From the NCBI GenBank assembly GCA_020850355.1, contig JADZEX010000040.1, forward strand, positions 6,339 to 70,338: a stretch of DNA of 64,000 nt, given 5' to 3'. Source of the stretch: Fimbriimonadaceae bacterium (GTDB lineage Bacteria > Armatimonadota > UBA10988). Both the position numbers and the translations under genes were made by a program. Position 1 is the stretch's first letter. Each line of letters begins with the position of its first letter. The notes beneath the pieces were generated by a model. It did no database searches and was not told the origin of the DNA. It saw only the letters and a list, made by a program, of their open reading frames with translations. Shown piece by piece: positions 3,515-45,982 of the stretch.

Positions 3515-3577
3515 CGCCGCCCCCCAAAACACGAAAGGGGCCCGCCCAGTGGGCGAGCCCCTCCCGAGGATCGGTGA

Positions 3578-5428
3578 TCAGAAGCTGAAGCCACCGACCA
3601 ACCGGACGCCCATGACGCCCTGGCTGGTGAGACCGGCAACGTTCAGCGCATGACCCGGATCGACGTCAGCGTAGATCGCCTGGATCGAGACGTCACCCTT
3701 ACCCGTCTGAACGAGCGGGAAGGAGCCGCCGATGGCCCAGTTGAACAGGTCGAGCCGGCGAGTCGAACCAGCCCAGCGCACCTTCAGCGGGCGGCTACCG
3801 ATGTTCCACTTGAAGTCAACATCGAAGCCCTGCGTCGGACCGAACTGGTTGATGAAGGAGTCCAACATCACCGGCCGGTCCATCAGCGTGAAGACGCCGT
3901 TGGCGCGGGTGTAGGGGTTGGTGAGGATCGAGTGGGAGAGGGTGTAGTCCTGCTCCACCAGACCGCCCTTGACCGCCAACTCGAAGGTCGGGGTGTCAAG
4001 GATCCCGAGTTCGGCGTAGATCACCTGACCATCAGCATCGGTGTCGAGGTTGAGGTCGGGGGTGGTGCCGATTTCGTTGCGGAACTGGCTGGTGTACTCG
4101 ATCTTCAGGCCCTTGAGGACGTTGACGTAGGCGTTCGCGGAAATCGACCACTCGCTGCTGCGGGTGCCGTCGTTGAAGCCCTTGCCAATGCCGGCCGCGT
4201 TGTTGTTCGGCATGTGGCCCACGGTCTGGAAGCCGAGCTTGATGAGGGGCTCGCCGCCAGCCTTCTTGAACCACGGGAAGTCGACATCCCAGCGAGCGAC
4301 GCCGGCGACGTTGGCATTGAGGATGCCGCCGCCCACGCCACTGGCCGCGCTGTCGTCAGCCTGGGCCAAGAGGGTCAACTTGCCGAACGTGCCGAGGCCG
4401 TACTCCGCGCGGATGCCGGTGAGGGCAGCGCCGGTGTAGTAGCCGGTACCCAGGCCAAGGGCCGGGGTGGCAGCGCCGGACTCATAGTCCTGACCAGCGT
4501 ACTGGCGACCGAAGATCCACTTGCCGCCGAGACCGGGCAGGCGGACCCAGGCTTCATCGACGCCCAGGCCGGCCAGGCCGGCGCTCTGCAAGCCGTGGTG
4601 CTGGTTGGCGTCGCTGTCGTACCACCAGGTCACGCGACCGCGCATGTCGCCGCCGAGGTTGGCATCGAGGCCGACCTTGACGCCGAGGTAGCTGAACGCC
4701 TCGCCCGACTCGAAGCCGAGGTCGCCGTCCTGCGCGCCGGTCTGATCGATCGCGCCGTCGAGACCGATTTCGGTGGTGATCCCGCCGTACCACTTGATCC
4801 GCTCGAGCTCTTCGATGCGGGCTTCGTGGTCATTGAGGGTGTCGGCCATCGCGGCGGCCTTGGACTCCAGGGCGGCGATCCGAGCCAACGCCTGATTGAC
4901 GTTCTGGCCCATCGTGTCGAGCTCGCCCTTGAACTCCTTGGTCAGCTTCTCGATGGCTTCGAGCTTCGTCAGCCAGTCCTTCGGGATCTGGCCGTCGGCG
5001 CCCTTGTCGCCCTTTTCGCCCTTGGCGCCGGGAGCGCCGTCACGACCGTCGGCACCCTTGGTGCCATCGCCACCCTTGGCGCCGGCCGATCCGGAGTCGC
5101 CCTTGTCGCCCTTCGAGCCGGCTGGCCCGACAAGCTTGGCGCGATTCTCGGCGAACCACTTCTCGAGGTCTTCCTTGGACATGCCCTTCGGAAGCTTCTC
5201 GAGGTTCTTCAGCATGCGATGGATCGCCACCGCGAACTCGTAGCGGGTCATGGGCTGCGGGCCGTCGAACGTACCGCCGGGGTAGCCCTCCAAAATGCCC
5301 GCTTGAGCCAGGTCCTGGACCGCATTGTAGGCCCAGTGGTCAAACGGAACATCGCTGAAGGCGCCGGCGTGCGACGGCCGCATGAGCAGAAGCCCCACGG
5401 CCACTGCGAGAAGAGCCTTCTTGCTCAT
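3578..5428 (-). CDS. SLH-domain outer-membrane porin of the OmpM/Slp type, with a signal peptide, SLH domain, collagen-like G-X-Y repeat, coiled coil and C-terminal beta-barrel ending in Phe
   Basis: MSKKALLAVAVGLLLMRPSHAGA is a signal peptide. FSDVPFDHWAYNAVQDLAQAGILEGYPGGTFDGPQPMTRYEFAVAIHRM is a classic SLH domain. GPAGSKGDKGDSGSAGAKGGDGTKGADGRDGAPGAKGEKGDKGADG is about 15 G-X-Y triplets. A heptad-rich EAIEKLTKEFKGELD...IEELERIK segment follows, then an alternating amphipathic C-terminal region ending ...RLVGGFSF. GGAGGAG lies 7 nt upstream of ATG 5428. The ORF-track N-terminal extension to 5632 is rejected. Confidence 0.85.
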   Translation of the reverse strand: MSKKALLAVAVGLLLMRPSHAGAFSDVPFDHWAYNAVQDLAQAGILEGYPGGTFDGPQPMTRYEFAVAIHRMLKNLEKLPKGMSKEDLEKWFAENRAKLVGPAGSKGDKGDSGSAGAKGGDGTKGADGRDGAPGAKGEKGDKGADGQIPKDWLTKLEAIEKLTKEFKGELDTMGQNVNQALARIAALESKAAAMADTLNDHEARIEELERIKWYGGITTEIGLDGAIDQTGAQDGDLGFESGEAFSYLGVKVGLDANLGGDMRGRVTWWYDSDANQHHGLQSAGLAGLGVDEAWVRLPGLGGKWIFGRQYAGQDYESGAATPALGLGTGYYTGAALTGIRAEYGLGTFGKLTLLAQADDSAASGVGGGILNANVAGVARWDVDFPWFKKAGGEPLIKLGFQTVGHMPNNNAAGIGKGFNDGTRSSEWSISANAYVNVLKGLKIEYTSQFRNEIGTTPDLNLDTDADGQVIYAELGILDTPTFELAVKGGLVEQDYTLSHSILTNPYTRANGVFTLMDRPVMLDSFINQFGPTQGFDVDFKWNIGSRPLKVRWAGSTRRLDLFNWAIGGSFPLVQTGKGDVSIQAIYADVDPGHALNVAGLTSQGVMGVRLVGGFSF

Positions 5429-5603
5429 CTCTTGCACTCCTCCGTGTGTTGCCAGGCCACAACGGGCTGGAGTCGCGTCGGTCGCGGTCGAGTGTCTTGC
5501 ATTTCCTCTCCGCCACCATCGCCCGTCCAACGCGCCGTGGATCCTCCTGTCAGACCTCCGCCGCGGCCGAAACCAACGGCTGGAGTCAGTCCAGTCGCGG
5601 CGC

Positions 5604-5632
5604 AGTATACCAGCCGGCGACAGCCACGTCAA
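5604..5632 (-). promoter_or_regulatory. Sigma70-type promoter upstream of the SLH porin (minus strand: -35 TTGACG, 17-nt spacer, -10 TATACT)
   Basis: The reverse complement of 5604-5632 reads TTGACGtggctgtcgccggctggTATACT. This would give a 5'UTR of about 170 nt. A second GGTATACTG copy sits at 5779-5787 without a good -35. Confidence 0.45.
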
Positions 5633-5843: not shown

Positions 5844-7313
5844 TCAGGCGGCGAACTCCACCGCCCGCTGCTCGCGCACCACCAGCACCTTGATCTGGCC
5901 GGGGTAGGTCAACTCGGCGCTGATCCGGCTGGCCAGTTGCCGCGCCAGCTCCGCCGCGCCGAGGTCATCGACCTCGTGCGGCCGGACCAGCACCCGCAGC
6001 TCCCGCCCGGCGGCGATGGCGTACGCTTTGGCGACGCCCGGAAACTCGAGGGCGAGCTGCTCCAGGCGCTCGATGCGTTGCAGGTATTGCTCGACGCTGT
6101 CCTTGCGGGCGCCGGGCCGGGCTGCCGAGAGGGCGTCGGCGGTCAGCACCAGGGTCGCCTCGAGCGAGGCCGGGGCCACGTCGCGATGGTGCGCCGCGAC
6201 GGCATGGCAGACCGCCGGCACCTCGCCATGGCGCTGCGCGAGCTCGGCGCCGAGGGTGGCGTGCGGGCCTTCGGCGCTGCTGCTGACGGCCTTGCCGAGA
6301 TCGTGCAGCAGCCCGGCCCGGCGGGCCAGCGCCGCGTCGCCACCCAGCTCGGCGGCCAGGACCTGCGCCAGGCGGGCCACCTCGACACTGTGCCGCAGCA
6401 CATTCTGGCCATAGCTGGTGCGGTACTGCAGGCGCCCCAACAGCTCCAGCAGCGGCGGGGCCAGCCCGGCCACACCGGCCGCGGCGGCGGCTCCTTCGCC
6501 GGCCAGCAGCAGCTCGGCGTCGAGTTCGGCGCGACAGCGCTCGACCACTTCCTCGATTCGCGCCGGGTGGATCCGCCCGTCGTCGACCAGCGCGGCCAGC
6601 GCCCGGCGGGCCACTTCGCGGCGGATCGGATCGAACGACGAGATCACCACCGCTTCCGGGGTGTCGTCGATCACCAGGTCGACCCCGGTGATCTGCTCGA
6701 AGGTCCGGATGTTGCGGCCCTCGCGGCCGATGATCCGGCCTTTGACCTCGTCGCTGCCGAGCGGGACGACGGCCACCGTGGACTCGCTGACCTGCTCCAC
6801 CGCGCAGCGTTCCATGGCCTGCGCCAGCAGCTCGCGGGCGCGGCCGGCGGCCGACTCACGCGCTTCGTCCTCCAGCCGCCGCGCGAGGTGCGCGGCCTCC
6901 TGCCGGACCGTCTGGGTGAGCCGTTCCAGGAGCTGCTCGCGAGCCGTCTCCACCGGCAGCCCGGCGACCGTCGCCAGCGCCTCGCACTGGGCCGCTTCGG
7001 CCGCCGCCAGGGCGGTTTCGCGGGCGGCCAGGGCGGTGCTCCGGGCAGCCAGCTCGCGCTCGGTGGCGGCGACTGCGGTGCTCTCCTGGGCGAGCTGCGC
7101 CTGCCGTTCTGCGAGGCACGCGGCGGTCCGGTCCAGTTCCTCGCGGCGCAGGCGCAACTCGGCCTCCAGGGTCTCGCGATGCTGGGCCAGGAGCTGGTGC
7201 GCCGCCAGCTCCGCCTGGGCACTGGCCGCGCTCAGGCGGGCCCGTGCCACCAGCCAGCCGAAACCCGCGAGCAGCCCGCCGGTGCCGATCCCGGCGGCGG
7301 CGATTATCTCCGC
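5844..7313 (-). CDS. rny: Ribonuclease Y (N-terminal TM, coiled coil, KH domain, HD domain)
   Basis: MSAEIIAAAGIGTGGLLAGFGWLVARARLS is the TM anchor, followed by a long coiled coil. VVPLGSDEVKGRIIGREGRNIRTFEQITGVDLVIDD is the KH domain, and HSVEVARLAQ...HDLGK...AVAAHH is the HD domain. The ORF-track upstream extension to 9011 is an antisense artefact of the lipoprotein gene. Confidence 0.9.
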   Translation of the reverse strand, partial: AEIIAAAGIGTGGLLAGFGWLVARARLSAASAQAELAAHQLLAQHRETLEAELRLRREELDRTAACLAERQAQLAQESTAVAATERELAARSTALAARETALAAAEAAQCEALATVAGLPVETAREQLLERLTQTVRQEAAHLARRLEDEARESAAGRARELLAQAMERCAVEQVSESTVAVVPLGSDEVKGRIIGREGRNIRTFEQITGVDLVIDDTPEAVVISSFDPIRREVARRALAALVDDGRIHPARIEEVVERCRAELDAELLLAGEGAAAAAGVAGLAPPLLELLGRLQYRTSYGQNVLRHSVEVARLAQVLAAELGGDAALARRAGLLHDLGKAVSSSAEGPHATLGAELAQRHGEVPAVCHAVAAHHRDVAPASLEATLVLTADALSAARPGARKDSVEQYLQRIERLEQLALEFPGVAKAYAIAAGRELRVLVRPHEVDDLGAAELARQLASRISAELTYPGQIKVLVVREQRAVEFAA

Positions 7314-7389
7314 GCTCATCCACGTCTCCGGCGTGCCCCCCAGAGCGGCCGGGCCGCCGGCCCGCAGCGACCGCGCGCCGGCGATCGGA

Positions 7390-7532: not shown

Positions 7533-8804
<1,272 letters not shown>

Positions 8805-10968: not shown

Positions 10969-11748
10969 TCAGCCATCCTCCAGAGTGGTCAGCAACTCGG
11001 CAAAGCGCTCGAAGCCGGCCCGCTCGCGGGCCCCGAACTCGAAGCGCACACACTCCCGCAGGTAGCGCAGGCAGACCGCCAGCGGCAACCCCAATCGCGC
11101 CGCCTCGGCCGCGGCGATGGCCGGGATCTGCGGTTCGGAGAGCTCCCGCGCCTGCCGCAGCAGCGCCGCCAGTTCGCCCTCGAGGCAGCTCCTCGGCGCG
11201 ACCCAGGCCGCGAACACGAACGGCAGGCCGGTCCACTGGCGCCAGGCCGCCCCCAGATCGTATGGCTGCGGCCGCCGCGCATCGTGCTGCGCCGCGACGA
11301 ACGCCGCCAGGGCCGGGTCGCCGATCAGCAGCGCCGCGTCGCAGTCGGCCAGCATCACCGCCAGGTCCGGCGGCCGACTGACCAACTCCGGCGCCACGCC
11401 ATGCAGGTCGCGCAGCAGGATCCGCGCCAGGGCCACCGAGGTCACCGAACTGCGATCGACGGCCAGGCGGCGCACCGCGGCCAGCGGGCCGTGGTGGAAG
11501 ATCGCCACGCTCTGCACCGGCCCGTCGGCGCTGACGCAGCCGGCCGCTGGCAAGATCCCGAGTTGTGGCTCCTGCAGGGCCACGATGCTGCTGACAATGG
11601 CGGCGTCGATCTGGCCGGCGACCAGCCAGCGCGCCAACTGCGAGGGCACCGCTGGGACCGGCTCCAGGCCAGGCACCGCGCCCTGCGTGATGGCCCAGCT
11701 CAGCGGCCGGGCGTTGAGGTAATCGACGATGCCGATCCGCCAGCTCAT
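10969..11748 (-). CDS. mqnA: Chorismate dehydratase MqnA (futalosine-pathway menaquinone biosynthesis)
   Basis: MSWRIGIVDYLNARPL...LPAAGCVSADGPVQSVAIFHH is the MqnA/MqnD periplasmic-binding-like fold signature. Its start ATG overlaps the upstream stop (ATGA at 11745-11748). Its stop is 6 nt before the MTAP ATG. Confidence 0.8.
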   Translation of the reverse strand: MSWRIGIVDYLNARPLSWAITQGAVPGLEPVPAVPSQLARWLVAGQIDAAIVSSIVALQEPQLGILPAAGCVSADGPVQSVAIFHHGPLAAVRRLAVDRSSVTSVALARILLRDLHGVAPELVSRPPDLAVMLADCDAALLIGDPALAAFVAAQHDARRPQPYDLGAAWRQWTGLPFVFAAWVAPRSCLEGELAALLRQARELSEPQIPAIAAAEAARLGLPLAVCLRYLRECVRFEFGARERAGFERFAELLTTLEDG

Positions 11749-14507
11749 CGCCGGCGGCGGCCGCGGCCGAGCAGGCCGTACAGCAAGCCGACCACCAACA
11801 GCCCGATCACCAAGGGGCGCATCACCGCGTCGGCGCTCAGGCCGAGCCACTCCAGTCCAATCACGTCCAGCCCGGCGTCGCCCCCGCCGGGACCGGTTGA
11901 CAGCAGTTGCAGCACCACCGGATTCGGGCCCTTGTCGAGCGTCGCCTCGCAGCGCGCCCCCATCCCCGGTCGCTCACCCGGCGCGGCGCTGTCGAGCGTC
12001 ATGGTCTGGCGGCCGAGCTGCACCGTGAAGCTGCCGCCGGTGGGCAACTGGGCCTGTCGGATGGTCACCCGATAGCGCCCGCTGCGGGGTGCCCAGAGGC
12101 GCAGCGTGCTGGTCGCGCCGACCCGGCCGAGCGGGCAGCGGAGGTAGGCCCCACCCGACCAGCGCGGCTCCGCGCCGAACCGGTGCTTGACCACCGCCCC
12201 GAGCGCCGCGGCGTCGCCGCGTCCCAGCCATTCGGCCTCGTGCCCGCGGTTGGCGCGCTGCAGCATCACCCAGTCGATACCTACCCGGAAGCCCGACTTC
12301 TCGTTGGTCAGTGCCGTCAGCGTCAGGCGATGCCGGCCCTGCTTCAGGCGATGCACTCCCAATGGGGTCCAGTCGCCGACGGTCGGCACCTTCGCGCCCA
12401 GGTTGAGACCGCCCGCCAGCAGGGGCTTGCCGTCCAAGTGGGCCCGCACTCCGCCGTACTCGGGTCCTTTCAGGAACGACACGACCAGGCCGTAGTCGGC
12501 CGTCTCCGGAACGTCGAGCGGCACCACCAGCGTGCCGACGCTGCCACCCAGGTTGGCAACCGCCGCGCCGCCGCCGCTGAGACAGGGCTCCGTCGGCCAG
12601 GCCCCCCCGACCACGCCGGTGGCCCGCACCGTCGTCGGCCCCAGCTCGTACAGCCGCTGCTCCAACTGGGCCCCGGACCCGAGCGCCTGCAGCGGCAGCG
12701 CCTCGGCCTCCAGCGCGCCCTTCACGCGGCCCACCGGGTGCAACTCGAGACCCTCCAGGTAGACCGGCGCGGTCCCGCCGCGGAGGGTCAACACGAGGGT
12801 CGTGGCGCCCTTGGAGAGGTTCGCCTCGCCCACCGCCCAACCTGGGCCGACCGGCGCCAGAGTCCGGGGCTGGGCGCCGTCCAGGCTGCCCTGCACCTGC
12901 AGCTCGGGCCCGCCGCCAGCTCCGATCAGCGTGACCCGGTAGCGCCCCGCCGCGGCGACGTCGACCGGCAGCCGGGCCGTGCCGCGCCCGACCACCTGCA
13001 GCGCCGCCGCCGCCAGCGCCGGACGGGGCAGACCCGGCCGCGCCACCCGCCGCACGGTGCAGCCGTCCCCGCCGCTACGCGCCGGGTCGCCCGCGAAGGC
13101 GACCAGCGCTGCGGGCGCCGCGACCGTCGCGGCGCGGGCCGGGGCGGGCGCCGTCACGGCCACCGGGCTGGCAGCGTACCAGTAGACCACACTGCGGTAG
13201 CGGCACCCCGGCGCGCTGTTCTGCTCGCCATGCTCCAGGTCCAGCGTCAACCGCTGCCGAAACGGCACGCCGCCGTCGAGGTACCAGCGATAGGCCTGCA
13301 CCGCGCGCTTCTCGCCGGGCAGCCAGGTCGCCCCGGCAGCGCGGTCGGCGTAGGCGCCGTGGCGGAAGTACCAGGCGCCGTCGAACCAATCCTCGGTCCC
13401 GGTGCCCACCAGGCGCTGCCCGTCGACGGTCAGCGTCTCGTCACCTTCCAGGTACTTCAGATCGGCCTGCCCCGCCAGCGTCACGGCGGCGCCGACCAGC
13501 GTCCCACGGCCGCGCAGGTCGGCCAGCCGGTGCGGTTGTCCGAGCTTGGTCAGACTCTCGACGCAGGTCGCCTGAAAGGTCCCATCGCGCGGCCCGACCG
13601 CGTCGCTGACCGCCGCGCTGACCTCGACGGCCAACGCCCGGCGGCCGGTGTTCAGCAGGCGCACCTCGGCGCTCCGCCTGAAGGGCAGCGGCCAGCGACA
13701 GCGGTAGTCGCCGGCGGCGTTGACGCTGAGCGCCGCGGACTCGTAACTGACCGCCCCCAGACCACAGGCGAAGAAGTCCAGCCAGGGCACGTCGACCGTC
13801 AGCGGCCCGCCCTCGAACCGCATCTGCAGCCGCAGCGCCAGCAGCTCGGCGTAGGTCGGCGACCCGCCCAACCGCAGCCGCAGCTCACGGACGCAGCCCG
13901 GCCCGCTGGCCTGCCACAGCACCGCGCTGCCGCCGGCCGGCACAGCGCACCGGCGGTGCACCGCCCGAGTCACCGGGACCGCCCGCTGCGGCGCGCGGTC
14001 GCCCGGCCGGAAACTCCGCCCGCCCGGCACCGCGGGCAGGGTCAGGTAGTTGATCTGATAGTAGAGCTGCTCGACGCCCTCGCCGGTGATCCGCAACGAC
14101 TTGGCGAACGGCAGCGGAGAGGTGCAGGCGACGCCGCCGCCCGCGCTGCTGACATACGGCGCCACCCGCGGTGCTTGCCCCGTGGCGCGGCCAAGCTCGG
14201 CGAACGGCACTTCCCACCGGGGCTGCGCCTCACCGTCGAAGTAGAGCCGCAGCGTGCCCTGCGGATTGGCCGACCAGATCCGCGTCACCACCCCCGGGCC
14301 CCGCGCGTCGAGCAGCACCGCGGTGTTGCCGGCCTGCCGGACATAGTGCCCGCGGTCGTCGTTCCCGCCCCGCGGATCGGCGCTGCTGACCAGATGCGGC
14401 ACGCCGTCGGACAGCACCGCAGCATCCACCAGGCCCGGATCGGCGGCCGCCGCACCGACCGTTCCCATCCAGCCCACTGCCACCGCGAACCAAAGCCCAC
14501 GCATCAT
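11745..14507 (-). CDS. Secreted glycoside hydrolase family 172 (DUF2961) protein with extra beta-sandwich/CBM-like domains and a C-terminal TM helix plus Arg-rich tail
   Basis: Signal peptide MMRGLWFAVAVGWMGTVGAAAA. The motifs RIWSANPQGTLRLYFDG...GTGTEDWFDGAWYF are the DUF2961 signature also seen in the 61728..63719 paralog. It ends ...MRPLVIGLLVVGLLYGLLGRGRRRR. Confidence 0.8.
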   Translation of the reverse strand: MMRGLWFAVAVGWMGTVGAAAADPGLVDAAVLSDGVPHLVSSADPRGGNDDRGHYVRQAGNTAVLLDARGPGVVTRIWSANPQGTLRLYFDGEAQPRWEVPFAELGRATGQAPRVAPYVSSAGGGVACTSPLPFAKSLRITGEGVEQLYYQINYLTLPAVPGGRSFRPGDRAPQRAVPVTRAVHRRCAVPAGGSAVLWQASGPGCVRELRLRLGGSPTYAELLALRLQMRFEGGPLTVDVPWLDFFACGLGAVSYESAALSVNAAGDYRCRWPLPFRRSAEVRLLNTGRRALAVEVSAAVSDAVGPRDGTFQATCVESLTKLGQPHRLADLRGRGTLVGAAVTLAGQADLKYLEGDETLTVDGQRLVGTGTEDWFDGAWYFRHGAYADRAAGATWLPGEKRAVQAYRWYLDGGVPFRQRLTLDLEHGEQNSAPGCRYRSVVYWYAASPVAVTAPAPARAATVAAPAALVAFAGDPARSGGDGCTVRRVARPGLPRPALAAAALQVVGRGTARLPVDVAAAGRYRVTLIGAGGGPELQVQGSLDGAQPRTLAPVGPGWAVGEANLSKGATTLVLTLRGGTAPVYLEGLELHPVGRVKGALEAEALPLQALGSGAQLEQRLYELGPTTVRATGVVGGAWPTEPCLSGGGAAVANLGGSVGTLVVPLDVPETADYGLVVSFLKGPEYGGVRAHLDGKPLLAGGLNLGAKVPTVGDWTPLGVHRLKQGRHRLTLTALTNEKSGFRVGIDWVMLQRANRGHEAEWLGRGDAAALGAVVKHRFGAEPRWSGGAYLRCPLGRVGATSTLRLWAPRSGRYRVTIRQAQLPTGGSFTVQLGRQTMTLDSAAPGERPGMGARCEATLDKGPNPVVLQLLSTGPGGGDAGLDVIGLEWLGLSADAVMRPLVIGLLVVGLLYGLLGRGRRRR

Positions 14508-14614
14508 GCTGTCACCGCCAGCAGTCTAGCGGCTTTGCCAGGGATCGGCAACGGCCGGAGCGCGGCCAAGGGAACCGGTACGGCCGCGGCGAAAGGCCTG
14601 GCAGCGAGAAGCAG

Positions 14615-17599
14615 ATGGCGTTCTGGCTGGGGTTGTCGCTGTTGTCGGTGACCGCCGCGCCGCGGACGGTGGTGGACCTGAGCGGGGCTTGGGAGCTGCG
14701 GGCCGATCCGCAGGACCAGGGCCTGGCCGACGGATGGCAGACGGCTGGGGGCGACTGGCCGACGGCGCGGGTGCCGCGGTCGTGGGAGCCGGCGCTGGGG
14801 CTCGACTACGATGGCGTCGGCTGGTACCGCCGGCGGGTGCGCGTGGCGCCGGGGCCGGGGCGTTGGTTGCTGCGGTTGCACGGGGCGGCCACCGCGGCGA
14901 CGGTCTGGGTCGGCGGGCGGGAGGTCGCCAGCCATCTCGGTGCCTGGACGCCGTTCACTGCCGAGGTGACCACCGACCTGGCCGACGGGCAGCCGCACGA
15001 GCTGGTGGTCCGGCTCGACGAACGGGTGGGCCACAACACGCAGGGCTTTCTGCCGATCATCGCACCGCACTTTGGCGGGCTGTGGCAGCGGGTCGAGCTG
15101 TTGCGAGTCGGGGCAGCCTGGTTCGACGACACGGCCTGGTGGGCCCACGCCGCGGCCAGCGGCGCGCTGGCCGTGCGGTTGCCGCTGCAGGGCGAGCTGC
15201 CGGCCGGGGCCGAGGTGCGGTGGAGCCTGTCCCGCGGCGGCCGCCGCGTCGCCAGCGGTCGGCGGCCGGCGGCGGCTGTCAACTCCTGGCAGTGGCGCGG
15301 CGCGGTCACCCCGTGGGGCGACGGGCAGTCGCAGCTCTACGCGTTGACCGCCGAGCTGTGGGCCGGCGGGCGGCGGATCGACGCGGTCAGCCGCCGGATC
15401 GGCTTCCGCAGTGTCACCACCGCCGGGCGGCAGATCCTGCTCAATGGCCAGCCGCTCCGGGTGCGCGGCGTGCTCAACTGGGGCTACTACCCGCCGGAGC
15501 TGGCCCCGGCTCCCGACCCGGCCGAGTTCCGTCGCGAAGTGCGGCGGTACCGCGCGATGGGTTTCAACCTGCTCAAGTTCTGCCTCTGGCAGCCGCCCCG
15601 CGAGCTGCTCGAGGTGCTCGACAGCGAGGGCTTCCTGGGCTGGATCGAGTACCCCACCTGGCACCCCAAGCTGGACGCCGCGCACCGCGACGAGCTGTTA
15701 CGGGAGTACGCCGAGTTTGGCCGCCTGGACGGTGCCCATCCGGCGGTGGTCGTCCGCAGTCTGACCTGCGAGACCGGTCCCGCGGCCGATCTGGCGGTGT
15801 TGCGGGCGCTCTACGACCAGGCCAAGGCGTGGGCGCCGGAGACGCTCGTCGAGGACGACTCGTCGTGGATCGGCTGGAACCGGATCCACGATGTCTGGGA
15901 CGACCACAGCTACGGCAACAACCGCTGGTGGCGCGGGCAGCTCGACCGGCTCGAGGCCCATGTCGCGCAGCACGGCGTGAAGCCGCTGCTGCTGGGTGAA
16001 GCGATCGCCGCCGACACCTGGGCCGACAGCGCGGCCCTGGCCGCGGCGGGAGCGGCCGAGGCCTGGTGGCGACCGCGGTGCTGGGACGACCAACGGCAGT
16101 TCGAGGCCGCCCTGCGCGAACGTTTCGGCGCAGCGGCAGTCGACGACCTGCTGGCGGTCAGCCGGCGCTACGCCGCGGCGATGCGGCGCTGGCAGGTCGA
16201 GACCTTCACGGAGCGGCTGCCCGACGCCGGCTATGTGGTCAGCGTGGCGCGCGACTTCACGCTGGCCCGGATGGGTCTGGCCGACGACCTGGGCCAACCG
16301 AAGTGGCCGCTGGCCGAGTGGGCCTGGCATGGCCCGCAGGTGGTGGCGCTGGCGACGCGCGGCGACCAACGCGGCTACCTGGCCGGCGCGGCGGCCGCCC
16401 TGGGGCTGGACCTGGCGGTCGACGACTCGCCGGTCAGCCGGCCGACGCGGCGGACGGTCGGTCGGACGGTCCACGGCCGGCGGCTGAGCTGGGAGCTCTG
16501 GGCCTTGCCCGCGGCGCCGGCTGTGCCACCGGGCACGGTGGTGGTGGCCAGCGCGGACAGCCCCTGGCCGGCTGTGCTGCCCGGCGCCGCGGTGGTCGCC
16601 CCGGGCGCGGCGTTGCCGGCGACGACCCGGCTGGCCGTCTGCAGCGAGCTGACTCCGCCGCTGGTGGCCTGGCTGCGGGCCGGCGGCCGCCTGCTGCACC
16701 TGCCGGGGACCGGGCGCGGGGCCTGGCAGACCGAGGCCCTCTGGTGGCTCCGCGGCACGGTCTGGCAGCCACCGCAGGAGGCTTTCGCGGAGCGGCTGCC
16801 GGCCGGTCTGTTGAGCGACCTGCAGCTCCACGAGCTGGGCGGCGAGCAGGTGATCCGGGGCGAGCTGCTGTGGGAGCAGGTCGACCCGTTGCTGACCTGC
16901 CTCGAAACCCACGACCTGGCGACGGTCCGGCCGAACCTGCTGGTCTTCCAGACGGCGGTCGGCGAGGGGCGGCTGCTGGTCAGCGCGCTGCGCCACGGCG
17001 GGCCGGACAACGCCGCCGGGGCCTGGCTGACGCGCGAGCTGGCAGCCTGGCTGGCAGCCGGGCCCGCGCCGCAACGGGCGCTGTCCGAGGCCACCGCGGC
17101 GGCCCTGGAGTTGGCCGCGGGCGCCCGCAGCGTGCGGCTGGGCGGTCCCTGGAGGTTTGCCAAGGACCCCACCAACAGCGGCCTCGCCAACGGCTGGCAG
17201 ACGCCGCAGTTCGGCGCCGCTGAGTGGCCGGAGCTGGTCGCCGGCAGCCGCGCCGAGTGGGACCTCTGGGCGACCTACGACGGCTGGGGCTGGTACCGCC
17301 GCGACCTGGAGCTGCCCGCCGACTGGCCCGCCGGCCCCGCCCGGCTGGTCTTCGAGAGCGTCGATGACATGTATGAGGTGTACGTCAACGGCCAGCTCGC
17401 CGGCGGCCACGGCCGGCTCGACCGCAGCGAGACCAGCTACCTCCGCCGCACCTGGTTGGACCTCGGGCGCTGGCTCCGACCGGGCCGTAACAGTCTCGTC
17501 GTGCGGGTCCACGACTGGTACGGCGGCGGCGGCCTGGGGCGCGACCCGCTGCTGACCACCGGCCCGGTCGAGCCGGAGTTCGATCTGCTGCGGCCCTGA
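14615..17599 (+). CDS. Glycoside hydrolase family 2-like protein (994 aa, beta-galactosidase/beta-mannosidase-type sugar-binding N-domain, TIM barrel, and a second GH2-type sugar-binding-like C-terminal domain)
   Basis: N-terminal LSGAWELRADP...GWQ...ARVPRSWE, then WYRRRVRV...LRLHGAATAATVWVGGREV (the GH2 sugar-binding jelly-roll pattern). The same pattern recurs near the C-terminus (GGPWRFAKDP...GWQTPQF...WYRRDLELP...ESVDDMYEVYVNGQ). Confidence 0.75.
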   Translation: MAFWLGLSLLSVTAAPRTVVDLSGAWELRADPQDQGLADGWQTAGGDWPTARVPRSWEPALGLDYDGVGWYRRRVRVAPGPGRWLLRLHGAATAATVWVGGREVASHLGAWTPFTAEVTTDLADGQPHELVVRLDERVGHNTQGFLPIIAPHFGGLWQRVELLRVGAAWFDDTAWWAHAAASGALAVRLPLQGELPAGAEVRWSLSRGGRRVASGRRPAAAVNSWQWRGAVTPWGDGQSQLYALTAELWAGGRRIDAVSRRIGFRSVTTAGRQILLNGQPLRVRGVLNWGYYPPELAPAPDPAEFRREVRRYRAMGFNLLKFCLWQPPRELLEVLDSEGFLGWIEYPTWHPKLDAAHRDELLREYAEFGRLDGAHPAVVVRSLTCETGPAADLAVLRALYDQAKAWAPETLVEDDSSWIGWNRIHDVWDDHSYGNNRWWRGQLDRLEAHVAQHGVKPLLLGEAIAADTWADSAALAAAGAAEAWWRPRCWDDQRQFEAALRERFGAAAVDDLLAVSRRYAAAMRRWQVETFTERLPDAGYVVSVARDFTLARMGLADDLGQPKWPLAEWAWHGPQVVALATRGDQRGYLAGAAAALGLDLAVDDSPVSRPTRRTVGRTVHGRRLSWELWALPAAPAVPPGTVVVASADSPWPAVLPGAAVVAPGAALPATTRLAVCSELTPPLVAWLRAGGRLLHLPGTGRGAWQTEALWWLRGTVWQPPQEAFAERLPAGLLSDLQLHELGGEQVIRGELLWEQVDPLLTCLETHDLATVRPNLLVFQTAVGEGRLLVSALRHGGPDNAAGAWLTRELAAWLAAGPAPQRALSEATAAALELAAGARSVRLGGPWRFAKDPTNSGLANGWQTPQFGAAEWPELVAGSRAEWDLWATYDGWGWYRRDLELPADWPAGPARLVFESVDDMYEVYVNGQLAGGHGRLDRSETSYLRRTWLDLGRWLRPGRNSLVVRVHDWYGGGGLGRDPLLTTGPVEPEFDLLRP

Positions 17600-17663
17600 G
17601 CCGTGGCGCCGGCGGGTTTGCGGTGGCGTTCGCCAGATGGTAGGCTCGCGGGCGGAGAAGGTG

Positions 17664-20054
17664 ATGCCGACCGTCTGGCTGGCCCTGGCCCTGCTCGCCC
17701 CCGGCCTGCCGGTGGTGCGCGAGGGGCGGCCCGTGGCGACGCTCGTGCCGTTGGCCGCGACCCCCGAACGACTCGCCACGGCGCGGCTGCTGCAGCAGGT
17801 GATCCGCCTCGCCAGCGGGGCCGAGGTGCCGATCGGGGCGCTGCCGACGAACGGCACCGCAATCCTCTTGGGCCGCCCGGCGACCGGCCCGGATCCGGTC
17901 GACCTGAGCGGCCTGGACGGTGACGGCTGCGTGCTGCAACCTCTCGACAACCAACGCTACGTGGTGGCCGGGCCGACCGAGTGGGGCACCGAGTTCGGAG
18001 CGGTCGAGCTGCTGGAGCAGATGGCCGGGGCGCGCTGGCTGCTGCCGGGCGAGCAGGGGCTGGATGTGCCACGCAACGCCGATCTGACGCTGCCGGCGAC
18101 GATCCAACGACAGCAGCCGGCCTACTTCTCGCGACTCTTGAGCGGGCTGGCCAACGGCACCCAGACCACCTGGGCGCGGCGCCTGCGGATGCACGGGCGG
18201 GTGCAGTTCCACCACAACCTGCTGCACCTCTTCGCGCCCGGCCGCTACTACGCGACCCGGCCGGAGTTCTTCCCAGTCTACGACGGGCGGCCCTACCGGC
18301 CGGTGGACGACGAGGACCCGCGCTGGCAGCCGAACTTCAGCGCGCCGGGGATCGTGGAGGAGGCGGTGGCCAACATCACGCGCTACTTCCGCGAGAACCC
18401 GGCCGCCGAGAGCTACAGCCTGGGCATCAACGACACCGCGCGCTTCGACGAGCGGCCGGAGTCCTTGGCCCGGGAGGTCGGGCGAAAGAACTTCCTGGGC
18501 GACCGCGATGTCTCGGACAGCTACTACCGCTGGTGCAACGAGGTGATCGAGGGGGTGCTACGCGAGTTCCCCGACAAGTGGTTCGGCTGCCTGGCCTACC
18601 ACAACGTCGCCGAGCCGCCGGTCAACCTGCGAGTCCACCCGCGGTTGATCCCCTACATGACCTACGACCGGCACAAGTGGGTCCTGCCGGCCGTGCGGCA
18701 GCAGGGCGAGGAGCTGACCCGCCGCTGGCACGCCCAGGCGCCACGGCTCGGCTGGTACGACTACGTTTACGGCACGCCCTACTGCCTGCCGCGCTGCTAT
18801 CCCCAGCAGATGGCCGCGGCCCTGCGCTTCGGGCGCGACCAGGGGGTCACCGCGCATTACGCCGAGGCCTACCCGAACTGGGGCGAGGGGCCGAAGCTGT
18901 ACCTCTATCTGAAGCTGCAGTGGAACCCCGATCTGGACGTGGCAGCGACGCTGGCGGAGTGGTACGAGCGTTGCGCCGGTCCCGCGGCAGCGCCCCTGTT
19001 GGCTGGGTATTACGCGCTCTGGGAGCGCTTCTGGACCGTCCGCGCGCCGGCCGGGAAGTGGTTCCGGGGCGGGCAGTACCTCAGTTTCGCCGACCCCGGC
19101 TACCTGGCCGAGGTCGATCCGGCCGACCTGCAGCGCAGCCGTGCCCTGCTTGACCGGGCGTTGGCGCTGACGGCGACGCCGGCGCAGCGCTGGCGGGTCG
19201 GCGTGCTGCGCGACGCCTTTGGCTATTACGAGGCCAGCGCGGTCAGCTACCTGGCCGACCACGCCGCGGTCGGGGCACCACCGGCGACCGAGGCCGCCGC
19301 CCTGGCGGTGCTGGAGCAGGCGGCCGACGGCATCGACCGCGGCGCGGCCCGGCTGGCGCTGGTCGACTCCTGGGGCCAGGACGCGCTGCTGACGCACCCA
19401 CTGCCGCCACAGCGCTACGGCGGGCTGAGCCGCAGCGATTGGGGCGGCGGACCGCTCTACCAACTGCTCTCCTGGGCGCAGCGCAGCCCGGCGGTGCTGG
19501 CCCGGCTGGAGGCCCTCGGGCGCAGCGGCGGCCCGGCGCTGCGCGAGGCGGCGCGGGCGCTGAGCGACCTGGCGGCCGGGCGGGCGACGGCGGTCAGCAG
19601 CAACCCGTCGGTCGAGGAGCACGCCACCGGCTGGACGATGTGGGTCAGCGACGTTGGCCAGATCGGGCGCAGCGACGCGGCGGCGCAGGACGGCCGGTGG
19701 TGCCTGCTGGCCACTGGCCTGCGGCGCGGCGGACCCTACCAGTTGCTGCCGGTGCAGCCCGGTCGTTACCTGGCGACCTGCTGGATCAGCGCGCCGGCCG
19801 GCCAGGAGAGCCCGGTCACGGTGGCCCTGACAGGCACCATGCGCGGCGACGACAACGTCAACCTGCCCTCGCCGCAGGCCCAGGCGGCGCCGCTGCCGGG
19901 CGTCTGGACGCCGTTGGTCTGCCCGGTCACAGTGCCCCAGCAGATCGGCGCCGTGACCGTCACGCGGATGCTGCTCTGCCCGATCGTCGACGGGCTGCGG
20001 CCCGGAGAGAAGGTCTACCTCGATGCGATTGCGCTGCACCGCCTGCCTGATTAG
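17664..20054 (+). CDS. DUF4838-like putative secreted glycoside hydrolase
   Basis: Signal peptide MPTVWLALALLAPGLPVV. The domain recollection is based on overall layout and motifs such as WQPNFSAPG...GCLAYHNV. GC3 is strong. The family assignment is from memory. Confidence 0.65.
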   Translation: MPTVWLALALLAPGLPVVREGRPVATLVPLAATPERLATARLLQQVIRLASGAEVPIGALPTNGTAILLGRPATGPDPVDLSGLDGDGCVLQPLDNQRYVVAGPTEWGTEFGAVELLEQMAGARWLLPGEQGLDVPRNADLTLPATIQRQQPAYFSRLLSGLANGTQTTWARRLRMHGRVQFHHNLLHLFAPGRYYATRPEFFPVYDGRPYRPVDDEDPRWQPNFSAPGIVEEAVANITRYFRENPAAESYSLGINDTARFDERPESLAREVGRKNFLGDRDVSDSYYRWCNEVIEGVLREFPDKWFGCLAYHNVAEPPVNLRVHPRLIPYMTYDRHKWVLPAVRQQGEELTRRWHAQAPRLGWYDYVYGTPYCLPRCYPQQMAAALRFGRDQGVTAHYAEAYPNWGEGPKLYLYLKLQWNPDLDVAATLAEWYERCAGPAAAPLLAGYYALWERFWTVRAPAGKWFRGGQYLSFADPGYLAEVDPADLQRSRALLDRALALTATPAQRWRVGVLRDAFGYYEASAVSYLADHAAVGAPPATEAAALAVLEQAADGIDRGAARLALVDSWGQDALLTHPLPPQRYGGLSRSDWGGGPLYQLLSWAQRSPAVLARLEALGRSGGPALREAARALSDLAAGRATAVSSNPSVEEHATGWTMWVSDVGQIGRSDAAAQDGRWCLLATGLRRGGPYQLLPVQPGRYLATCWISAPAGQESPVTVALTGTMRGDDNVNLPSPQAQAAPLPGVWTPLVCPVTVPQQIGAVTVTRMLLCPIVDGLRPGEKVYLDAIALHRLPD

Positions 20055-28865: not shown

Positions 28866-29677
28866 CCGCCGCCCTGCCCGGCGCGGGCGCCGCGCGGCCG
28901 CGCGAGCTGCTGGCCGCCGCGGCGCGCTACTGTGGGCAGCGCCTGCTGGCCTTCCTCGGCTATCTCGGGGACGTCGTCTTGTTGGGCAACCAGACCGTGC
29001 AGTTCATCTTGCGCGGACAGGTCACGCGGCGCGAAGTCTTCGACCAGATGGCGGCGATCGGCGTGGCGGGGCTGCCGCTGGTCGCGCTGACCGTCTGTTT
29101 CAGCGGCATGGTCTTCGGGGTCTACGGCGTCGAGCAGTTCAAGGCCTTTGGGCTGACCAACCTGCTCGGCGGGATCACCGCGATGTCGATGACCCGCGAG
29201 GTGGCGCCGGTGCTGGCGGCGACGGTGGTGGCCGCCCGCAGCGGCTCGGCGATCGCCGCCGAGATGGCGACCATGAAGATCACCGAGCAGCTCGACGCGC
29301 TGCGCGCGCTGGCCACCGATCCGGTCGAGTACCTGGCGGTGCCGCGCTACATCGCGCTGGTCTTCACGTTGCCGATGCTGGCCCTGGTCGGGATGTGCGC
29401 CGGCACCTGGGGCGGCGGGCTGGTGGCCACCTGGAGCGGCATCTCGTGGGGTGAGTACATCAGCCAGATTCCCGATCGCGTGCCGCCCGACTATGTCGTC
29501 AACGGCTGCATCAAGGCGATGGTGTTCGGCGCGCTGATCGCCCTGGCCAGCCTGCGCCAGGGCTTCCGCTGCGGCTACGGCGCGGAGTCGGTCGGCCGCA
29601 CGACGACCCAGGCGGTGGTGCTCAACATCCTCTGGATCCACGCCGCCAACCTGCTGCTGGCGATGCTCACCGAGTAA
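28862..29677 (+). CDS. MlaE/YrbE-family ABC transporter permease
   Basis: FLGYLGDVVLLGNQTVQFILRGQVTRREVFDQMAAIGVAGLPLV...MSMTREVAPVLAATVVAARSGSAIAAEMATMKITEQLDALRALATDP matches the MlaE permease family throughout. The ATGA overlaps the upstream gene. No MlaF/MlaD gene is adjacent. Confidence 0.85.
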   Translation: MTAALPGAGAARPRELLAAAARYCGQRLLAFLGYLGDVVLLGNQTVQFILRGQVTRREVFDQMAAIGVAGLPLVALTVCFSGMVFGVYGVEQFKAFGLTNLLGGITAMSMTREVAPVLAATVVAARSGSAIAAEMATMKITEQLDALRALATDPVEYLAVPRYIALVFTLPMLALVGMCAGTWGGGLVATWSGISWGEYISQIPDRVPPDYVVNGCIKAMVFGALIALASLRQGFRCGYGAESVGRTTTQAVVLNILWIHAANLLLAMLTE

Positions 29678-40809: not shown

Positions 40810-40908
40810 CGCGAGCTCCCAGGCGGATCGCCGGTTCGCGCTGGGGCCGGCTGAACCTGCCGGCAGGAGCGCCGTCCGATTCCCCGAACCGCGCCCCTGG
40901 AGCTGCCG

Positions 40909-45956: not shown

Positions 45957-45982
45957 GCCTGGTGCAAAGGAGAGCCGAAGGA

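What the first reader, a model, noticed from the sequence alone, without database searches (positions are those of the whole stretch)
3578..5428. SLH-anchored OmpM-like porin containing a collagen-like (G-X-Y)15 segment between the SLH domain and the coiled-coil/beta-barrel
The domain order is: signal peptide, SLH domain, about 45 residues of uninterrupted Gly-X-Y triplets (GPAGSKGDKGDSGSAGAKGGDGTKGADGRDGAPGAKGEKGDKGADG), a heptad coiled coil, then a C-terminal beta-barrel ending in Phe.

OmpM/Slp-type proteins are known to form trimers that tether the outer membrane to peptidoglycan through a coiled-coil stalk. A collagen-like triple helix inserted in the stalk would be stoichiometrically compatible with a trimer, and I do not recall it being described for these tethers. 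It could act as a rigid spacer setting the periplasmic width.

The presence of this protein also marks the organism as having an SLH-tethered outer membrane.
Basis: seen in the sequence. Interest (0 to 1): 0.6.

Follow-up and report, generated by a model that had tools for sequence, protein, structure and literature searches.

The report
Collagen-like stalk in OmpM-type tether
This gene encodes an outer-membrane porin that is anchored to the cell wall, and part of its periplasmic stalk is a collagen-like Gly-X-Y segment; the same design runs through Armatimonadota outer-membrane tethers and I found no paper describing it.

Summary
Window 3578-5428 (minus strand) encodes a 616-aa protein with this order:
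- signal peptide;
- an SLH domain about 57% identical to that of Veillonella OmpM1;
- 15-16 uninterrupted Gly-X-Y triplets, above the Pfam Collagen gathering score;
- eight unbroken heptads of coiled coil;
- a confidently modelled 18-strand porin barrel ending in Phe.

The Gly-X-Y tract is not a one-off.
- 15 of 17 orthologues have it; the other two carry a longer, mostly helical insert at the same place.
- 111 of 111 members of a separate Chthonomonadaceae-type family have it.
- About 80 of 87 SLH open reading frames in Armatimonadota or WS1 genome loci have it.

Across 2,039 triplets the composition is collagen-typical: Pro, Asp and Glu in X, and Lys and Gln in Y. KGD/KGE-type pairs are twice as frequent as expected. 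Paralogues within one genome, with barrels only 36-47% identical, have stalk segments equal to within about one residue.

The best reading is a trimeric OmpM-type tether and porin whose stalk is a collagen triple helix in series with a coiled coil, together about 20-27 nm. Trimer and triple-helix formation are inferred, not shown. Three key OmpM/SlpA papers never mention collagen. I class it as a new variant of a known kind.

The parts
3578..5428 (-). Complete gene for the SLH-collagen-coiled-coil-porin protein (616 aa plus stop codon)
   Evidence: Translation; Pfam SLH and Collagen hits; 100%-identical metagenomic protein P0001 and orthologues at 43-65% identity.
5604..5632 (-). Promoter-like site: TTGACG, 17-nt spacer, TATACT, with TG extension
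   Evidence: Consensus scan: 10 of 12 matches, 0.1 sites expected by chance. This is a consensus match only.
5437..5443 (-). Shine-Dalgarno sequence GGAGGAG, 8 nt before the ATG
   Evidence: Read directly from the sequence.
5366..5428 (-). Signal peptide, residues 1-21 (MSKKALLAVAVGLLLMRPSHA|GA)
   Evidence: By inspection: an n-region with KK, a hydrophobic core and S-H-A before the predicted cleavage site. It aligns with the OmpM1 signal peptide and mature start (...AFA|ANPFSDV). No signal-peptide predictor was run.
5231..5359 (-). SLH domain, residues 24-66, with W32 and T61-R62-Y63-E64
   Evidence: Pfam SLH E 1.3e-9. Sequence matches to V. parvula OmpM1 and D. radiodurans SlpA in the PDB. 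Invariant columns in the orthologue alignment.
5129..5230 (-). Linker, residues 67-100; two short helices are predicted (62-77 and 85-99)
   Evidence: AlphaFold2 secondary structure, at low to moderate confidence.
4985..5128 (-). Collagen-like (G-X-Y) tract of 15-16 triplets, residues 101-148
   Evidence: Pfam Collagen 31.6 bits against a gathering score of 27.2. Only such run in all six frames of the window. All 7 Lys residues sit in the Y position; there are 4 KGD/KGE pairs and the net charge is 0.
4799..4984 (-). Alpha-helical coiled-coil stalk, residues 149-210, including the conserved EFxxELxxxG motif (F166, E169, L170, G174)
   Evidence: A single heptad register from W152 to L208. AlphaFold2 helix at 150-208. 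Invariant F166, L170 and nearly invariant E169, G174.
3581..4798 (-). 18-strand porin-type beta-barrel, residues 211-616, ending in Phe
   Evidence: AlphaFold2 pLDDT mostly 85-95. Foldseek matches to C. jejuni MOMP, V. parvula OmpM1, AlgE and OmpF-type porins at E about 1e-10. The distant family member P0025 passes the Pfam Porin_4 gathering score.
3522..3566 (-). Terminator-like hairpin (16-bp stem, 12 G-C pairs) followed by TGTTTTGGGG, just after the stop codon
   Evidence: Consensus scan. The number of such sites found in the region is no higher than in shuffled sequence, so this is only suggestive.

Best explanation
**What it is.** The gene encodes an OmpM/SlpA-type outer-membrane tether and porin of an Armatimonadota bacterium.

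**Shown here.**
- A Sec-type signal peptide.
- One N-terminal SLH domain with the conserved peptidoglycan/polymer-binding residues.
- 15-16 uninterrupted G-X-Y triplets.
- An unbroken eight-heptad helix.
- A confident 18-strand porin barrel ending in Phe.
- Conservation of this order across Armatimonadota.

**Inferred by homology to the solved OmpM1 and SlpA trimers.** Three chains assemble. Their barrels sit in the outer membrane, their helices form a trimeric coiled coil, and their SLH domains form the wall-binding head.

**Inferred from the sequence statistics.** The three G-X-Y tracts wind into a collagen-type triple helix of about 13-14 nm (48 residues at 0.286 nm each). This lies in series with the coiled coil. 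From the SLH domain to the barrel the periplasmic rod is roughly 20-27 nm, depending on how much of residues 72-100 is extended.

**How it would be stabilised.** This organism's tract is poor in Pro and rich in charge, so Lys(Y)-Gly-Asp/Glu(X) interchain pairs would stabilise it rather than hydroxyproline.

**How it would fold.** The barrel trimer and coiled coil lie C-terminal to the tract and would register and nucleate it from the C-terminal end towards the N-terminus. Collectins have the same arrangement, with their neck helices C-terminal to the collagen region.

**Proposed function.** The rod is a stiff, residue-economical spacer. It fixes the distance between the outer membrane and the peptidoglycan, while the barrel serves as a diffusion channel.
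For: **OmpM identity**
- Pfam SLH hit.
- PDB sequence hits to VpOmpM1 and SlpA, with W and TRYE conserved.
- Heptad register.
- AlphaFold2 helix plus 18-strand barrel.
- Foldseek porin matches, including OmpM1 at TM-score 0.61.
- Armatimonadota origin.
- An MlaE gene in the window, consistent with a diderm cell.

**Collagen character**
- Pfam Collagen above the gathering score.
- Unbroken Gly phase; the only such run in the window.
- In 2,039 triplets from 171 runs, X is 44% Pro, 13.6% Asp and 8.3% Glu. Y is 16.2% Lys and 12.9% Gln. There are no aromatic residues.
- Y = K/R followed by G-(D/E) occurs 397 times against 202 expected.

**Conservation**
- 15 of 17 orthologues.
- 37 of 68 SLH-porin-like proteins retrieved with a profile that contained no G-X-Y columns.
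- About 80 of 87 SLH ORFs in genome loci.
- 111 of 111 members of the Chthonomonadaceae-type family.

**Interchangeability with a helical stalk**
- Orthologues P0013 and P0015 lack G-X-Y and instead carry 119-150 other residues at that site. AlphaFold2 predicts these as mostly helical in P0013.

**Length matching**
- 23 within-genome paralogue pairs differ by a mean of 1.6 residues (median 0). The 14 pairs with barrels under 50% identical differ by 0.7.
- Between genomes the median difference is 7 residues and the mean is 22. Permutation p <= 1e-4.
- Stalk sequences of the 13 divergent pairs examined are only 43-62% identical, so recent gene conversion does not explain the match.
Against: - No trimer or triple helix was modelled or measured. 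The AlphaFold2 monomer leaves residues 100-148 unstructured (pLDDT below 50) and also models the SLH domain poorly.
- This organism's tract has only 2 Pro in 48 residues.
- Compensation of physical length is weakly supported. The regression slope of -1.71 depends on two related G-X-Y-less sequences. Among the 15 G-X-Y-bearing orthologues the slope is -0.98, which means constant residue number. Across families there is no compensation at all.
- Length matching within a genome could partly reflect lengths conserved within a clade rather than co-tuning. No phylogenetic correction was done.
- The genome-locus sample was ranked by tblastn with a G-X-Y-containing query, which favours G-X-Y-bearing hits.
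Confidence: 0.7

Rival explanations
1. The G-X-Y tract is a flexible, disordered Gly-rich linker between the SLH domain and the coiled coil, not a triple helix.
For: The AlphaFold2 monomer gives pLDDT below 50 and no secondary structure for residues 100-148. The window's tract has little Pro. Many family members have only 6-12 triplets, which is short for an isolated triple helix.
Against: - A disordered linker needs no strict Gly-every-third-residue phase. Yet the phase is unbroken over 6-54 triplets in hundreds of diverged sequences.
- The X and Y positions have sharply different, collagen-typical compositions.
- KGD/KGE-type axial pairs are enriched twofold.
- The tract is flanked on both sides by domains that are trimeric in solved homologues.
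Confidence: 0.15
2. The tract is a slippage-generated low-complexity insertion with no specific structural role, tolerated because the stalk is permissive.
For: Short 9- and 18-bp DNA repeats occur inside it. Triplet number varies from 5 to 54 across proteins. The sequence of the tract is poorly conserved between orthologues.
Against: - Position, phase and approximate length are kept across orthologues at 42-65% identity and across separate barrel families.
- Lengths are matched among divergent paralogues within one genome.
- The DNA repeats have only 2-3 copies.
Confidence: 0.07
3. The collagen-like segment is exposed on the cell surface as an adhesin or fibre, as in Scl, BclA, or autotransporters that carry collagen repeats.
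For: Known bacterial collagen-like proteins are surface-exposed (NCBIfam weak hits to SclA, SclB and Lcl). Negativicutes autotransporters found in the same search carry collagen repeats in their extracellular passenger.
Against: Here the tract lies between the N-terminal SLH domain, which binds the wall, and the periplasmic coiled coil that enters the barrel. That is the same topology as solved OmpM1 and SlpA. There is no YadA anchor or LPXTG motif.
Confidence: 0.03
4. A triple helix does form, but its main role is not to set distance. It could instead be a mechanical element or a docking site for periplasmic partners.
For: Across families the tract simply adds length, with no compensation. 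Junction motifs next to the tract, such as EFxxEL and GMTPE, are conserved and could be interaction sites. The D. radiodurans SlpA stalk binds an accessory lipoprotein.
Against: Near-identical stalk lengths among divergent co-resident paralogues are most simply explained by a shared distance constraint. No conserved partner gene lies nearby; the neighbours are RNase Y, a HEAT-repeat protein and a Tmemb_14 protein.
Confidence: 0.1

Closest known systems
Veillonella parvula OmpM1 (PDB 8BYM/8BYS/8BYT; stalk 8BZ2), Silale et al. 2023, PMC10628300
   Same: [quoted passage not shown] OmpM1 is a trimer with a dual tether and porin role.
   Different: OmpM1 has a 16-strand barrel and a stalk that is only a coiled coil of about 50 residues (R64-R113). 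The window protein has 18 strands and inserts 15-16 G-X-Y triplets before the coiled coil. The barrel sequences are not detectably similar; the match is by fold only, at 12% identity.
Deinococcus radiodurans SlpA (PDB 7ZGX), von Kuegelgen et al. 2022, PMC9388160
   Same: The tripartite SLH, trimeric stalk and barrel connector. Its stalk is long, about 28 nm, matching a wide gap between outer membrane and wall. The total length estimated here is comparable.
   Different: SlpA reaches that length with an all-alpha coiled coil containing beta-layers, and it has a 30-strand barrel. Here about half the length would come from a collagen-type helix.
Collectins (MBL, SP-D) and macrophage scavenger receptor A (from general knowledge, not tested here)
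   Same: A collagen triple helix directly joined to a trimeric alpha-helical coiled coil in one homotrimer. In collectins the coiled-coil neck is C-terminal to the collagen region and registers it, the same order as here.
   Different: These are eukaryotic, extracellular and hydroxylated, with no membrane barrel or wall-binding domain. There is no homology beyond the repeat.
Bacterial collagen-like surface proteins Scl1/Scl2, Lcl and BclA
   Same: Hydroxyproline-free G-X-Y tracts rich in charged residues. There are weak NCBIfam matches through the repeat.
   Different: Those are cell-surface adhesins or exosporium fibres with LPXTG or other anchors. All NCBIfam scores are far below the cutoffs (32 against 325-500). 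The tract here is periplasmic by topology.
Braun's lipoprotein Lpp (functional analogue; general knowledge)
   Same: A trimeric rod that links the outer membrane to peptidoglycan, and whose length sets periplasm width in E. coli.
   Different: Lpp is a small lipoprotein coiled coil covalently bound to peptidoglycan. There is no homology, no barrel, no SLH domain and no collagen.
Negativicutes trimeric autotransporters with Collagen, YadA anchor and C-terminal SLH (P0036, P0038; locus L072)
   Same: They combine SLH and collagen repeats in one trimeric outer-membrane protein.
   Different: The order is reversed: the collagen repeats are in the extracellular passenger and the SLH domain follows the anchor. 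The barrel is a 12-strand YadA anchor, not a porin.

Membership tests
OmpM/SlpA-type SLH-anchored outer-membrane tether and porin | N-terminal Sec signal peptide | tested here: met
   MSKKALLAVAVGLLLMRPSHA|GA, judged by inspection. It aligns with the OmpM1 signal peptide and mature N-terminus. No dedicated predictor was run.
OmpM/SlpA-type SLH-anchored outer-membrane tether and porin | A single N-terminal SLH domain with the conserved Trp, Gly and TRxE ligand-binding residues | tested here: met
   Pfam SLH E 1.3e-9. PDB hits to OmpM1 at 4.5e-14 and SlpA at 4.5e-13, with W32 and TRYE aligned. These residues are invariant in the orthologues.
OmpM/SlpA-type SLH-anchored outer-membrane tether and porin | Alpha-helical coiled-coil stalk between the SLH domain and the barrel | tested here: met
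   One heptad register from W152 to L208. AlphaFold2 helix at 150-208.
OmpM/SlpA-type SLH-anchored outer-membrane tether and porin | C-terminal porin-type beta-barrel ending in an aromatic residue | tested here: met
   18 strands at high pLDDT. Foldseek matches to porins including OmpM1. The C-terminus is ...GGFSF.
OmpM/SlpA-type SLH-anchored outer-membrane tether and porin | Homotrimeric assembly | not testable with these tools
   Only monomer AlphaFold2 is available. The trimer is inferred from the solved OmpM1 and SlpA trimers.
OmpM/SlpA-type SLH-anchored outer-membrane tether and porin | Binds peptidoglycan or a wall polymer and tethers the outer membrane | not testable with these tools
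   Needs biochemistry or genetics. Only the conservation of the binding residues is shown.
OmpM/SlpA-type SLH-anchored outer-membrane tether and porin | Found in diderm Terrabacteria | tested here: met
   Named relatives are Armatimonadetes or Fimbriimonadaceae. Armatimonadetes are listed as having OmpM. The window carries MlaE.
Collagen triple-helix repeat (Pfam PF01391) / bacterial collagen-like proteins | Uninterrupted Gly at every third residue over many triplets | tested here: met
   15 strict triplets plus a 16th, residues 101-148.
Collagen triple-helix repeat (Pfam PF01391) / bacterial collagen-like proteins | Passes the Pfam Collagen gathering score | tested here: met
   31.6 bits against 27.2.
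Collagen triple-helix repeat (Pfam PF01391) / bacterial collagen-like proteins | Position-specific X and Y composition, with stabilising Lys(Y)-Gly-Asp/Glu(X) pairs | tested here: met
   In the window, all 7 Lys are in Y and there are 4 KGD/KGE pairs. Across the families, X is rich in Pro, Asp and Glu and Y in Lys and Gln. The pairs occur 397 times against 202 expected.
Collagen triple-helix repeat (Pfam PF01391) / bacterial collagen-like proteins | An adjacent trimerisation domain to register the three chains | tested here: inconclusive
   A coiled-coil heptad pattern starts 4 residues after the tract, and the SLH domain lies N-terminal. Their trimeric state is inferred from homologues only.
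Collagen triple-helix repeat (Pfam PF01391) / bacterial collagen-like proteins | Actual triple-helix formation | not testable with these tools
   The monomer model leaves the tract unstructured. This needs a multimer prediction, circular dichroism or cryo-EM.
Cyanobacterial SomA/SomB iron-uptake porin (NCBIfam NF033921) | Whole-protein score above the curated cutoff, including the barrel | tested here: not met
   49.5 bits against a cutoff of 100. Only the SLH part (residues 24-81) matches. The Porin_5-type relatives found have no G-X-Y.
Trimeric autotransporter adhesin | YadA-like membrane anchor | tested here: not met
   No PF03895 hit in the window protein. That domain is present only in the unrelated Negativicutes hits.

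The most novel reading that the evidence does not exclude
A hydroxyproline-free collagen triple helix is the standard periplasmic ruler of a whole bacterial phylum. In Armatimonadota and neighbouring lineages, essentially all OmpM-type tethers would use a collagen-type rod. Its triplet number would be co-tuned among the several tethers of one cell and would set the distance between outer membrane and wall. This would be the first collagen structure inside a bacterial periplasm, folded from the C-terminal end off the membrane-inserted barrel trimer.
Probability: 0.4. Interest if true: 0.78.

Novelty: new variant of a known kind. Interest (0 to 1): 0.62.

Why it matters
- **A different stalk.** OmpM/SlpA tethers are regarded as the ancestral outer-membrane attachment system of Terrabacteria. 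Their stalk has been described only as an alpha-helical coiled coil. A collagen-type stalk would be a second structural solution to the same problem. It would also be the first collagen-like helix placed in the periplasm rather than on the cell surface.
- **A testable ruler.** A collagen helix rises about twice as far per residue as an alpha helix. Natural triplet numbers range from about 6 to 54. Armatimonadota therefore offer a graded series for testing how tether length sets periplasm width.
- **An annotation gap.** Most of these tracts (6-12 triplets) fall below the Pfam Collagen threshold, so the feature is invisible in standard annotation.

Tried and rejected
- **AlphaFold2 monomer for the G-X-Y tract.** Uninformative, as expected. 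A trimer could not be submitted.
- **AFDB Foldseek search.** This was meant to find cultured-organism homologues, but the library was unavailable.
- **Cluster look-up for organism names.** Almost no names were returned.
- **Physical-length compensation across all SLH-porins.** There is no signal: slope -0.18, and +0.07 within G-X-Y-bearing proteins. The claim is therefore restricted to the orthologue family.
- **Compensation among G-X-Y-bearing orthologues only.** The slope is -0.98, meaning constant residue count, not constant nanometres. The compensation argument rests on two sequences and is kept only as weak support.
- **Recent gene conversion as the cause of equal paralogue lengths.** Rejected, because the stalk sequences are only 43-62% identical.
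- **Functional link to neighbouring genes.** The neighbours are RNase Y, a HEAT-repeat protein and a Tmemb_14 protein. Only rny synteny is conserved and no mechanistic link is evident.
- **Membership of the cyanobacterial por_somb family.** Rejected on score.
- **Literature.** Six keyword combinations found no description of collagen in SLH-porins.
Full report
**1.

The minus-strand ORF at 3578-5428 encodes a 616-aa protein. The longer TTG-start ORF listed to 5632 is only the mechanical ORF call. The ATG at 5428 is preceded by GGAGGAG at an 8-nt spacing.

A sigma-70-like promoter match lies at 5632-5604, with 10 of 12 consensus positions and 0.1 sites expected by chance. A 16-bp-stem hairpin followed by a T-run lies immediately after the stop codon. 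The gene therefore looks like its own transcription unit.

Pfam finds SLH at residues 24-66 (E 1.3e-9) and Collagen at 101-147 (31.6 bits, above the 27.2 gathering score). The G-X-Y tract maps to 4985-5128. It is 15 strict triplets plus G-Q-I. It is the only run of six or more G-x-x triplets in any frame of this 72% G+C, 64-kb window. Tandem Repeats Finder sees only 2-3 copies of 9- and 18-bp units, so it is not a fresh slippage array.

**2.

- *SLH domain.* Residues 21-78 align to the SLH domain of Veillonella parvula OmpM1 (8BZ2, 8BYS, 8BYM; E about 1e-13) and D. radiodurans SlpA (7ZGX). The Trp and the TRYE motif are conserved, and Silale et al. tie these to ligand binding.
- *Coiled coil.* Residues W152-L208 keep one heptad register. 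Positions a are L156, T163, L170, V177, I184, A191, L198 and I205. Positions d are W152, I159, F166, M173, A180, L187, M194, H201 and L208.
- *Barrel.* AlphaFold2, run on a 25-sequence alignment, gives a continuous helix at 150-208 and then 18 strands with pLDDT mostly 85-95.
- *Fold matches.* Foldseek against the PDB returns porins at E about 1e-10. These include OmpM1 (TM-score 0.61 normalised to the target), C. jejuni MOMP and AlgE. A distant family member, P0025, passes the Pfam Porin_4 gathering score.
- *What the model cannot show.* The SLH domain and the G-X-Y tract are poorly modelled in the monomer (pLDDT below 50). For a tract that can only fold as three chains this is uninformative.

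**3. Who has it**

The protein has an identical metagenomic copy and orthologues at 43-65% identity. Those that carry names are Armatimonadetes MAGs. In GTDB genomes the closest loci are Fimbriimonadaceae, at 53-54% identity.

The barrel family itself is small. A profile of the coiled coil plus barrel only, searched against 1.84 billion cluster representatives, found 12 proteins at E <= 1e-30 and 199 at E <= 1e-3.

The architecture is far wider than the family:

| Sample | With a G-X-Y run | Source |
|---|---|---|
| Orthologues of the window protein | 15 of 17, with 36-60 G-X-Y residues at the same site | |
| SLH-porin-like proteins retrieved with the profile lacking G-X-Y columns | 37 of 68, with 5 or more triplets right after the SLH domain | |
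| SLH ORFs in 78 genome loci | about 80 of 87, with 5-54 triplets (mode 12-16) starting 5-31 residues after the SLH domain | |
| Chthonomonadaceae-type family, retrieved by full-length homology | 111 of 111, with 6-12 triplets | |

The 78 genome loci are mostly Armatimonadota, including Armatimonadia and Ca. Zipacnadia, with a few from candidate division WS1. In the Chthonomonadaceae-type family only 1 of 120 proteins carries a Pfam Collagen annotation, so the feature is hidden from standard annotation.

Proteins without a G-X-Y run include:
- the Abditibacteriota locus (L015);
- an Anaerovibrio OmpM (L078);
- the Porin_5-type (cyanobacterial-like) group.

The papers on the solved OmpM1 and SlpA describe only coiled-coil stalks and never mention collagen.

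One caveat applies to the genome-locus sample. It was ranked by tblastn with a G-X-Y-containing query, which favours G-X-Y-bearing hits.

**4. Is it a real collagen-type helix or just a Gly-rich linker?**

No direct structural test was possible. The sequence statistics favour a triple helix.

- Across 2,039 triplets from 171 runs the two non-Gly positions differ sharply. X is 44% Pro, 13.6% Asp and 8.3% Glu. Y is 16.2% Lys, 12.9% Gln and 5.3% Thr. There are no aromatic residues. From general knowledge, these are the known collagen preferences.
- Basic Y followed by Gly and an acidic X is the axial pair known, from memory of the host-guest peptide literature, to stabilise triple helices. It occurs 397 times against 202 expected when X and Y residues are shuffled within runs. 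The same-triplet Asp/Glu-Lys/Arg pair is enriched only 1.3-fold. Related sequences inflate the z-score but not the fold enrichment.
- In the window's own tract all seven Lys are in Y. There are four KGD/KGE pairs, the net charge is zero, and there are only two Pro. It is therefore of the charge-stabilised kind.
- The tract is flanked by two modules that are trimeric in solved homologues. The first coiled-coil core residue (W152) comes four residues after the end of the tract.

**5. Evidence for a spacer role**

*(a) Substitution by helix.* The two orthologues without G-X-Y (P0013, P0015; also loci L003 and L004) carry 119-150 other residues at the same site. For P0013, AlphaFold2 predicts mostly helical segments at low to moderate confidence.

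I assumed a rise of 0.286 nm per collagen residue and 0.15 nm per helical residue. On that basis the stretch from the SLH domain to F166 is 20.6 +/- 1.6 nm across 17 orthologues (coefficient of variation 0.08). Residue number varies more (coefficient of variation 0.15). The regression of non-G-X-Y residues on G-X-Y residues has slope -1.71 +/- 0.16; constant physical length predicts -1.9.

This support is weak. It depends on two related sequences. Among the 15 G-X-Y-bearing orthologues the slope is -0.98, which means constant residue number. Across unrelated families there is no compensation, and G-X-Y simply adds length: a median of about 15 nm against 7.8 nm before the EFxxEL motif.

*(b) Length matching within a genome.* In 23 within-genome paralogue pairs, the stretch from the SLH domain to the motif differs by a mean of 1.6 residues (median 0). 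The 14 pairs with barrels under 50% identical differ by 0.7. Between genomes the median difference is 7 residues and the mean is 22 (permutation p <= 1e-4).

In the 13 divergent pairs examined, the stalk sequences are only 43-62% identical, so recent gene conversion is not the cause. Two paralogue types covary across four genomes: 74/72, 70/69, 70/69 and 66/65 residues. Genomes with very long tracts have them in both paralogues (35/35 and 36/29 triplets). This fits a shared distance constraint, but no phylogenetic correction was done.

**6. Mechanism proposed**

The protein would be a homotrimer. Three 18-strand barrels sit in the outer membrane. A trimeric coiled coil covers residues 150-208 (59 residues, about 8.8 nm at 0.15 nm per residue). 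A collagen triple helix covers residues 101-148 (13.7 nm). A short helical linker leads to an SLH trimer bound to the wall.

The total from the SLH domain to the barrel is roughly 20-27 nm. For comparison, the SlpA stalk is about 28 nm. The OmpM1 coiled coil spans about 50 residues, which I estimate at 7-8 nm.

Folding from the membrane-inserted barrel and coiled coil towards the N-terminus would match the C-to-N zipper direction of collagen and the collectin arrangement. This step is inference from general knowledge.

**7. Comparison and novelty**

Every sequence-testable defining feature of OmpM/SlpA tethers is met. Trimerisation and wall binding could not be tested. The window protein differs from OmpM1 and SlpA in having a collagen-like stalk segment and an 18-strand barrel.

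None of the three main papers on this system contains the word 'collagen'. Six keyword combinations over 8 million full texts found no description of it. That library is incomplete, so absence from it is not proof. I class this as a new variant of a known kind.

**8. Context**

- RNase Y lies directly upstream on the same strand, and this synteny is conserved in three of the four closest loci.
- A HEAT-repeat protein and a Tmemb_14 protein lie downstream.
- Elsewhere the window carries MlaE, an SLT transglycosylase, PAP2, FtsE/FtsX with an M23 peptidase, and glycoside hydrolases. This is an ordinary chromosomal region of a diderm bacterium.

Noticed in passing
Proteins P0036, P0038, P0047, P0079 and others; locus L072 (Phascolarctobacterium MAG), match region about 6001-6285: Negativicutes-type trimeric autotransporters combine 13-67 G-X-Y triplets in the extracellular passenger with a YadA anchor and a C-terminal SLH domain. 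This is the reverse arrangement of the window protein.
   Followed up: partly
Proteins P0057 and P0279-P0392 (Chthonomonadaceae-type SLH-porins): All 111 full-length members have 6-12 G-X-Y triplets followed by a conserved G(M/V)TPE junction. Only 1 of 120 carries a Pfam Collagen annotation, so the tract is invisible to standard domain annotation.
   Followed up: yes
Loci L010, L011, L013, L016, L017, L019, L024, L045, L064: Armatimonadia, Zipacnadia and WS1 genomes carry two or three SLH-G-X-Y-porin paralogues in the same locus, some of them adjacent. Their barrels are divergent (36-39% identity in several pairs) but their stalk lengths are equal or nearly equal.
   Followed up: partly
window 5847-7328 (-); loci L002-L004 upstream of the match: RNase Y (RNase_Y_N, KH and HD domains) lies immediately upstream on the same strand. 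This rny-ompM adjacency is conserved in three of the four closest genome loci.
   Followed up: partly
window 7536-8801 (+): A probable lipoprotein (MAKRFWILLGGAALVTGC lipobox) with a long Ala/Pro-rich region and a helical C-terminal part. It has no Pfam hit. It lies opposite the spurious N-terminal extension of the RNase Y ORF.
   Followed up: no
window 11748-20051: A cluster of large secreted-looking proteins with DUF2961, GH2-type sugar-binding and DUF4838 domains, probably for carbohydrate degradation. A GH9 cellulase-like gene lies at 40855-43296.
   Followed up: no
window 28718-29674 (+) and 44270-47152 (+): An MlaE permease, which belongs to the outer-membrane lipid-asymmetry system and is consistent with a diderm envelope. 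Also an FtsE/FtsX plus M23/PcsB-like peptidase module.
   Followed up: no
Alignment A1; window residues 163-174 (about 4907-4942, -): An EFxxELxxxG motif at the start of the coiled coil is conserved in the family (F166 and L170 invariant, E169 and G174 nearly so). It recurs just after the G-X-Y tract in unrelated SLH-porin families, including those without G-X-Y. Its role is unknown.
   Followed up: partly
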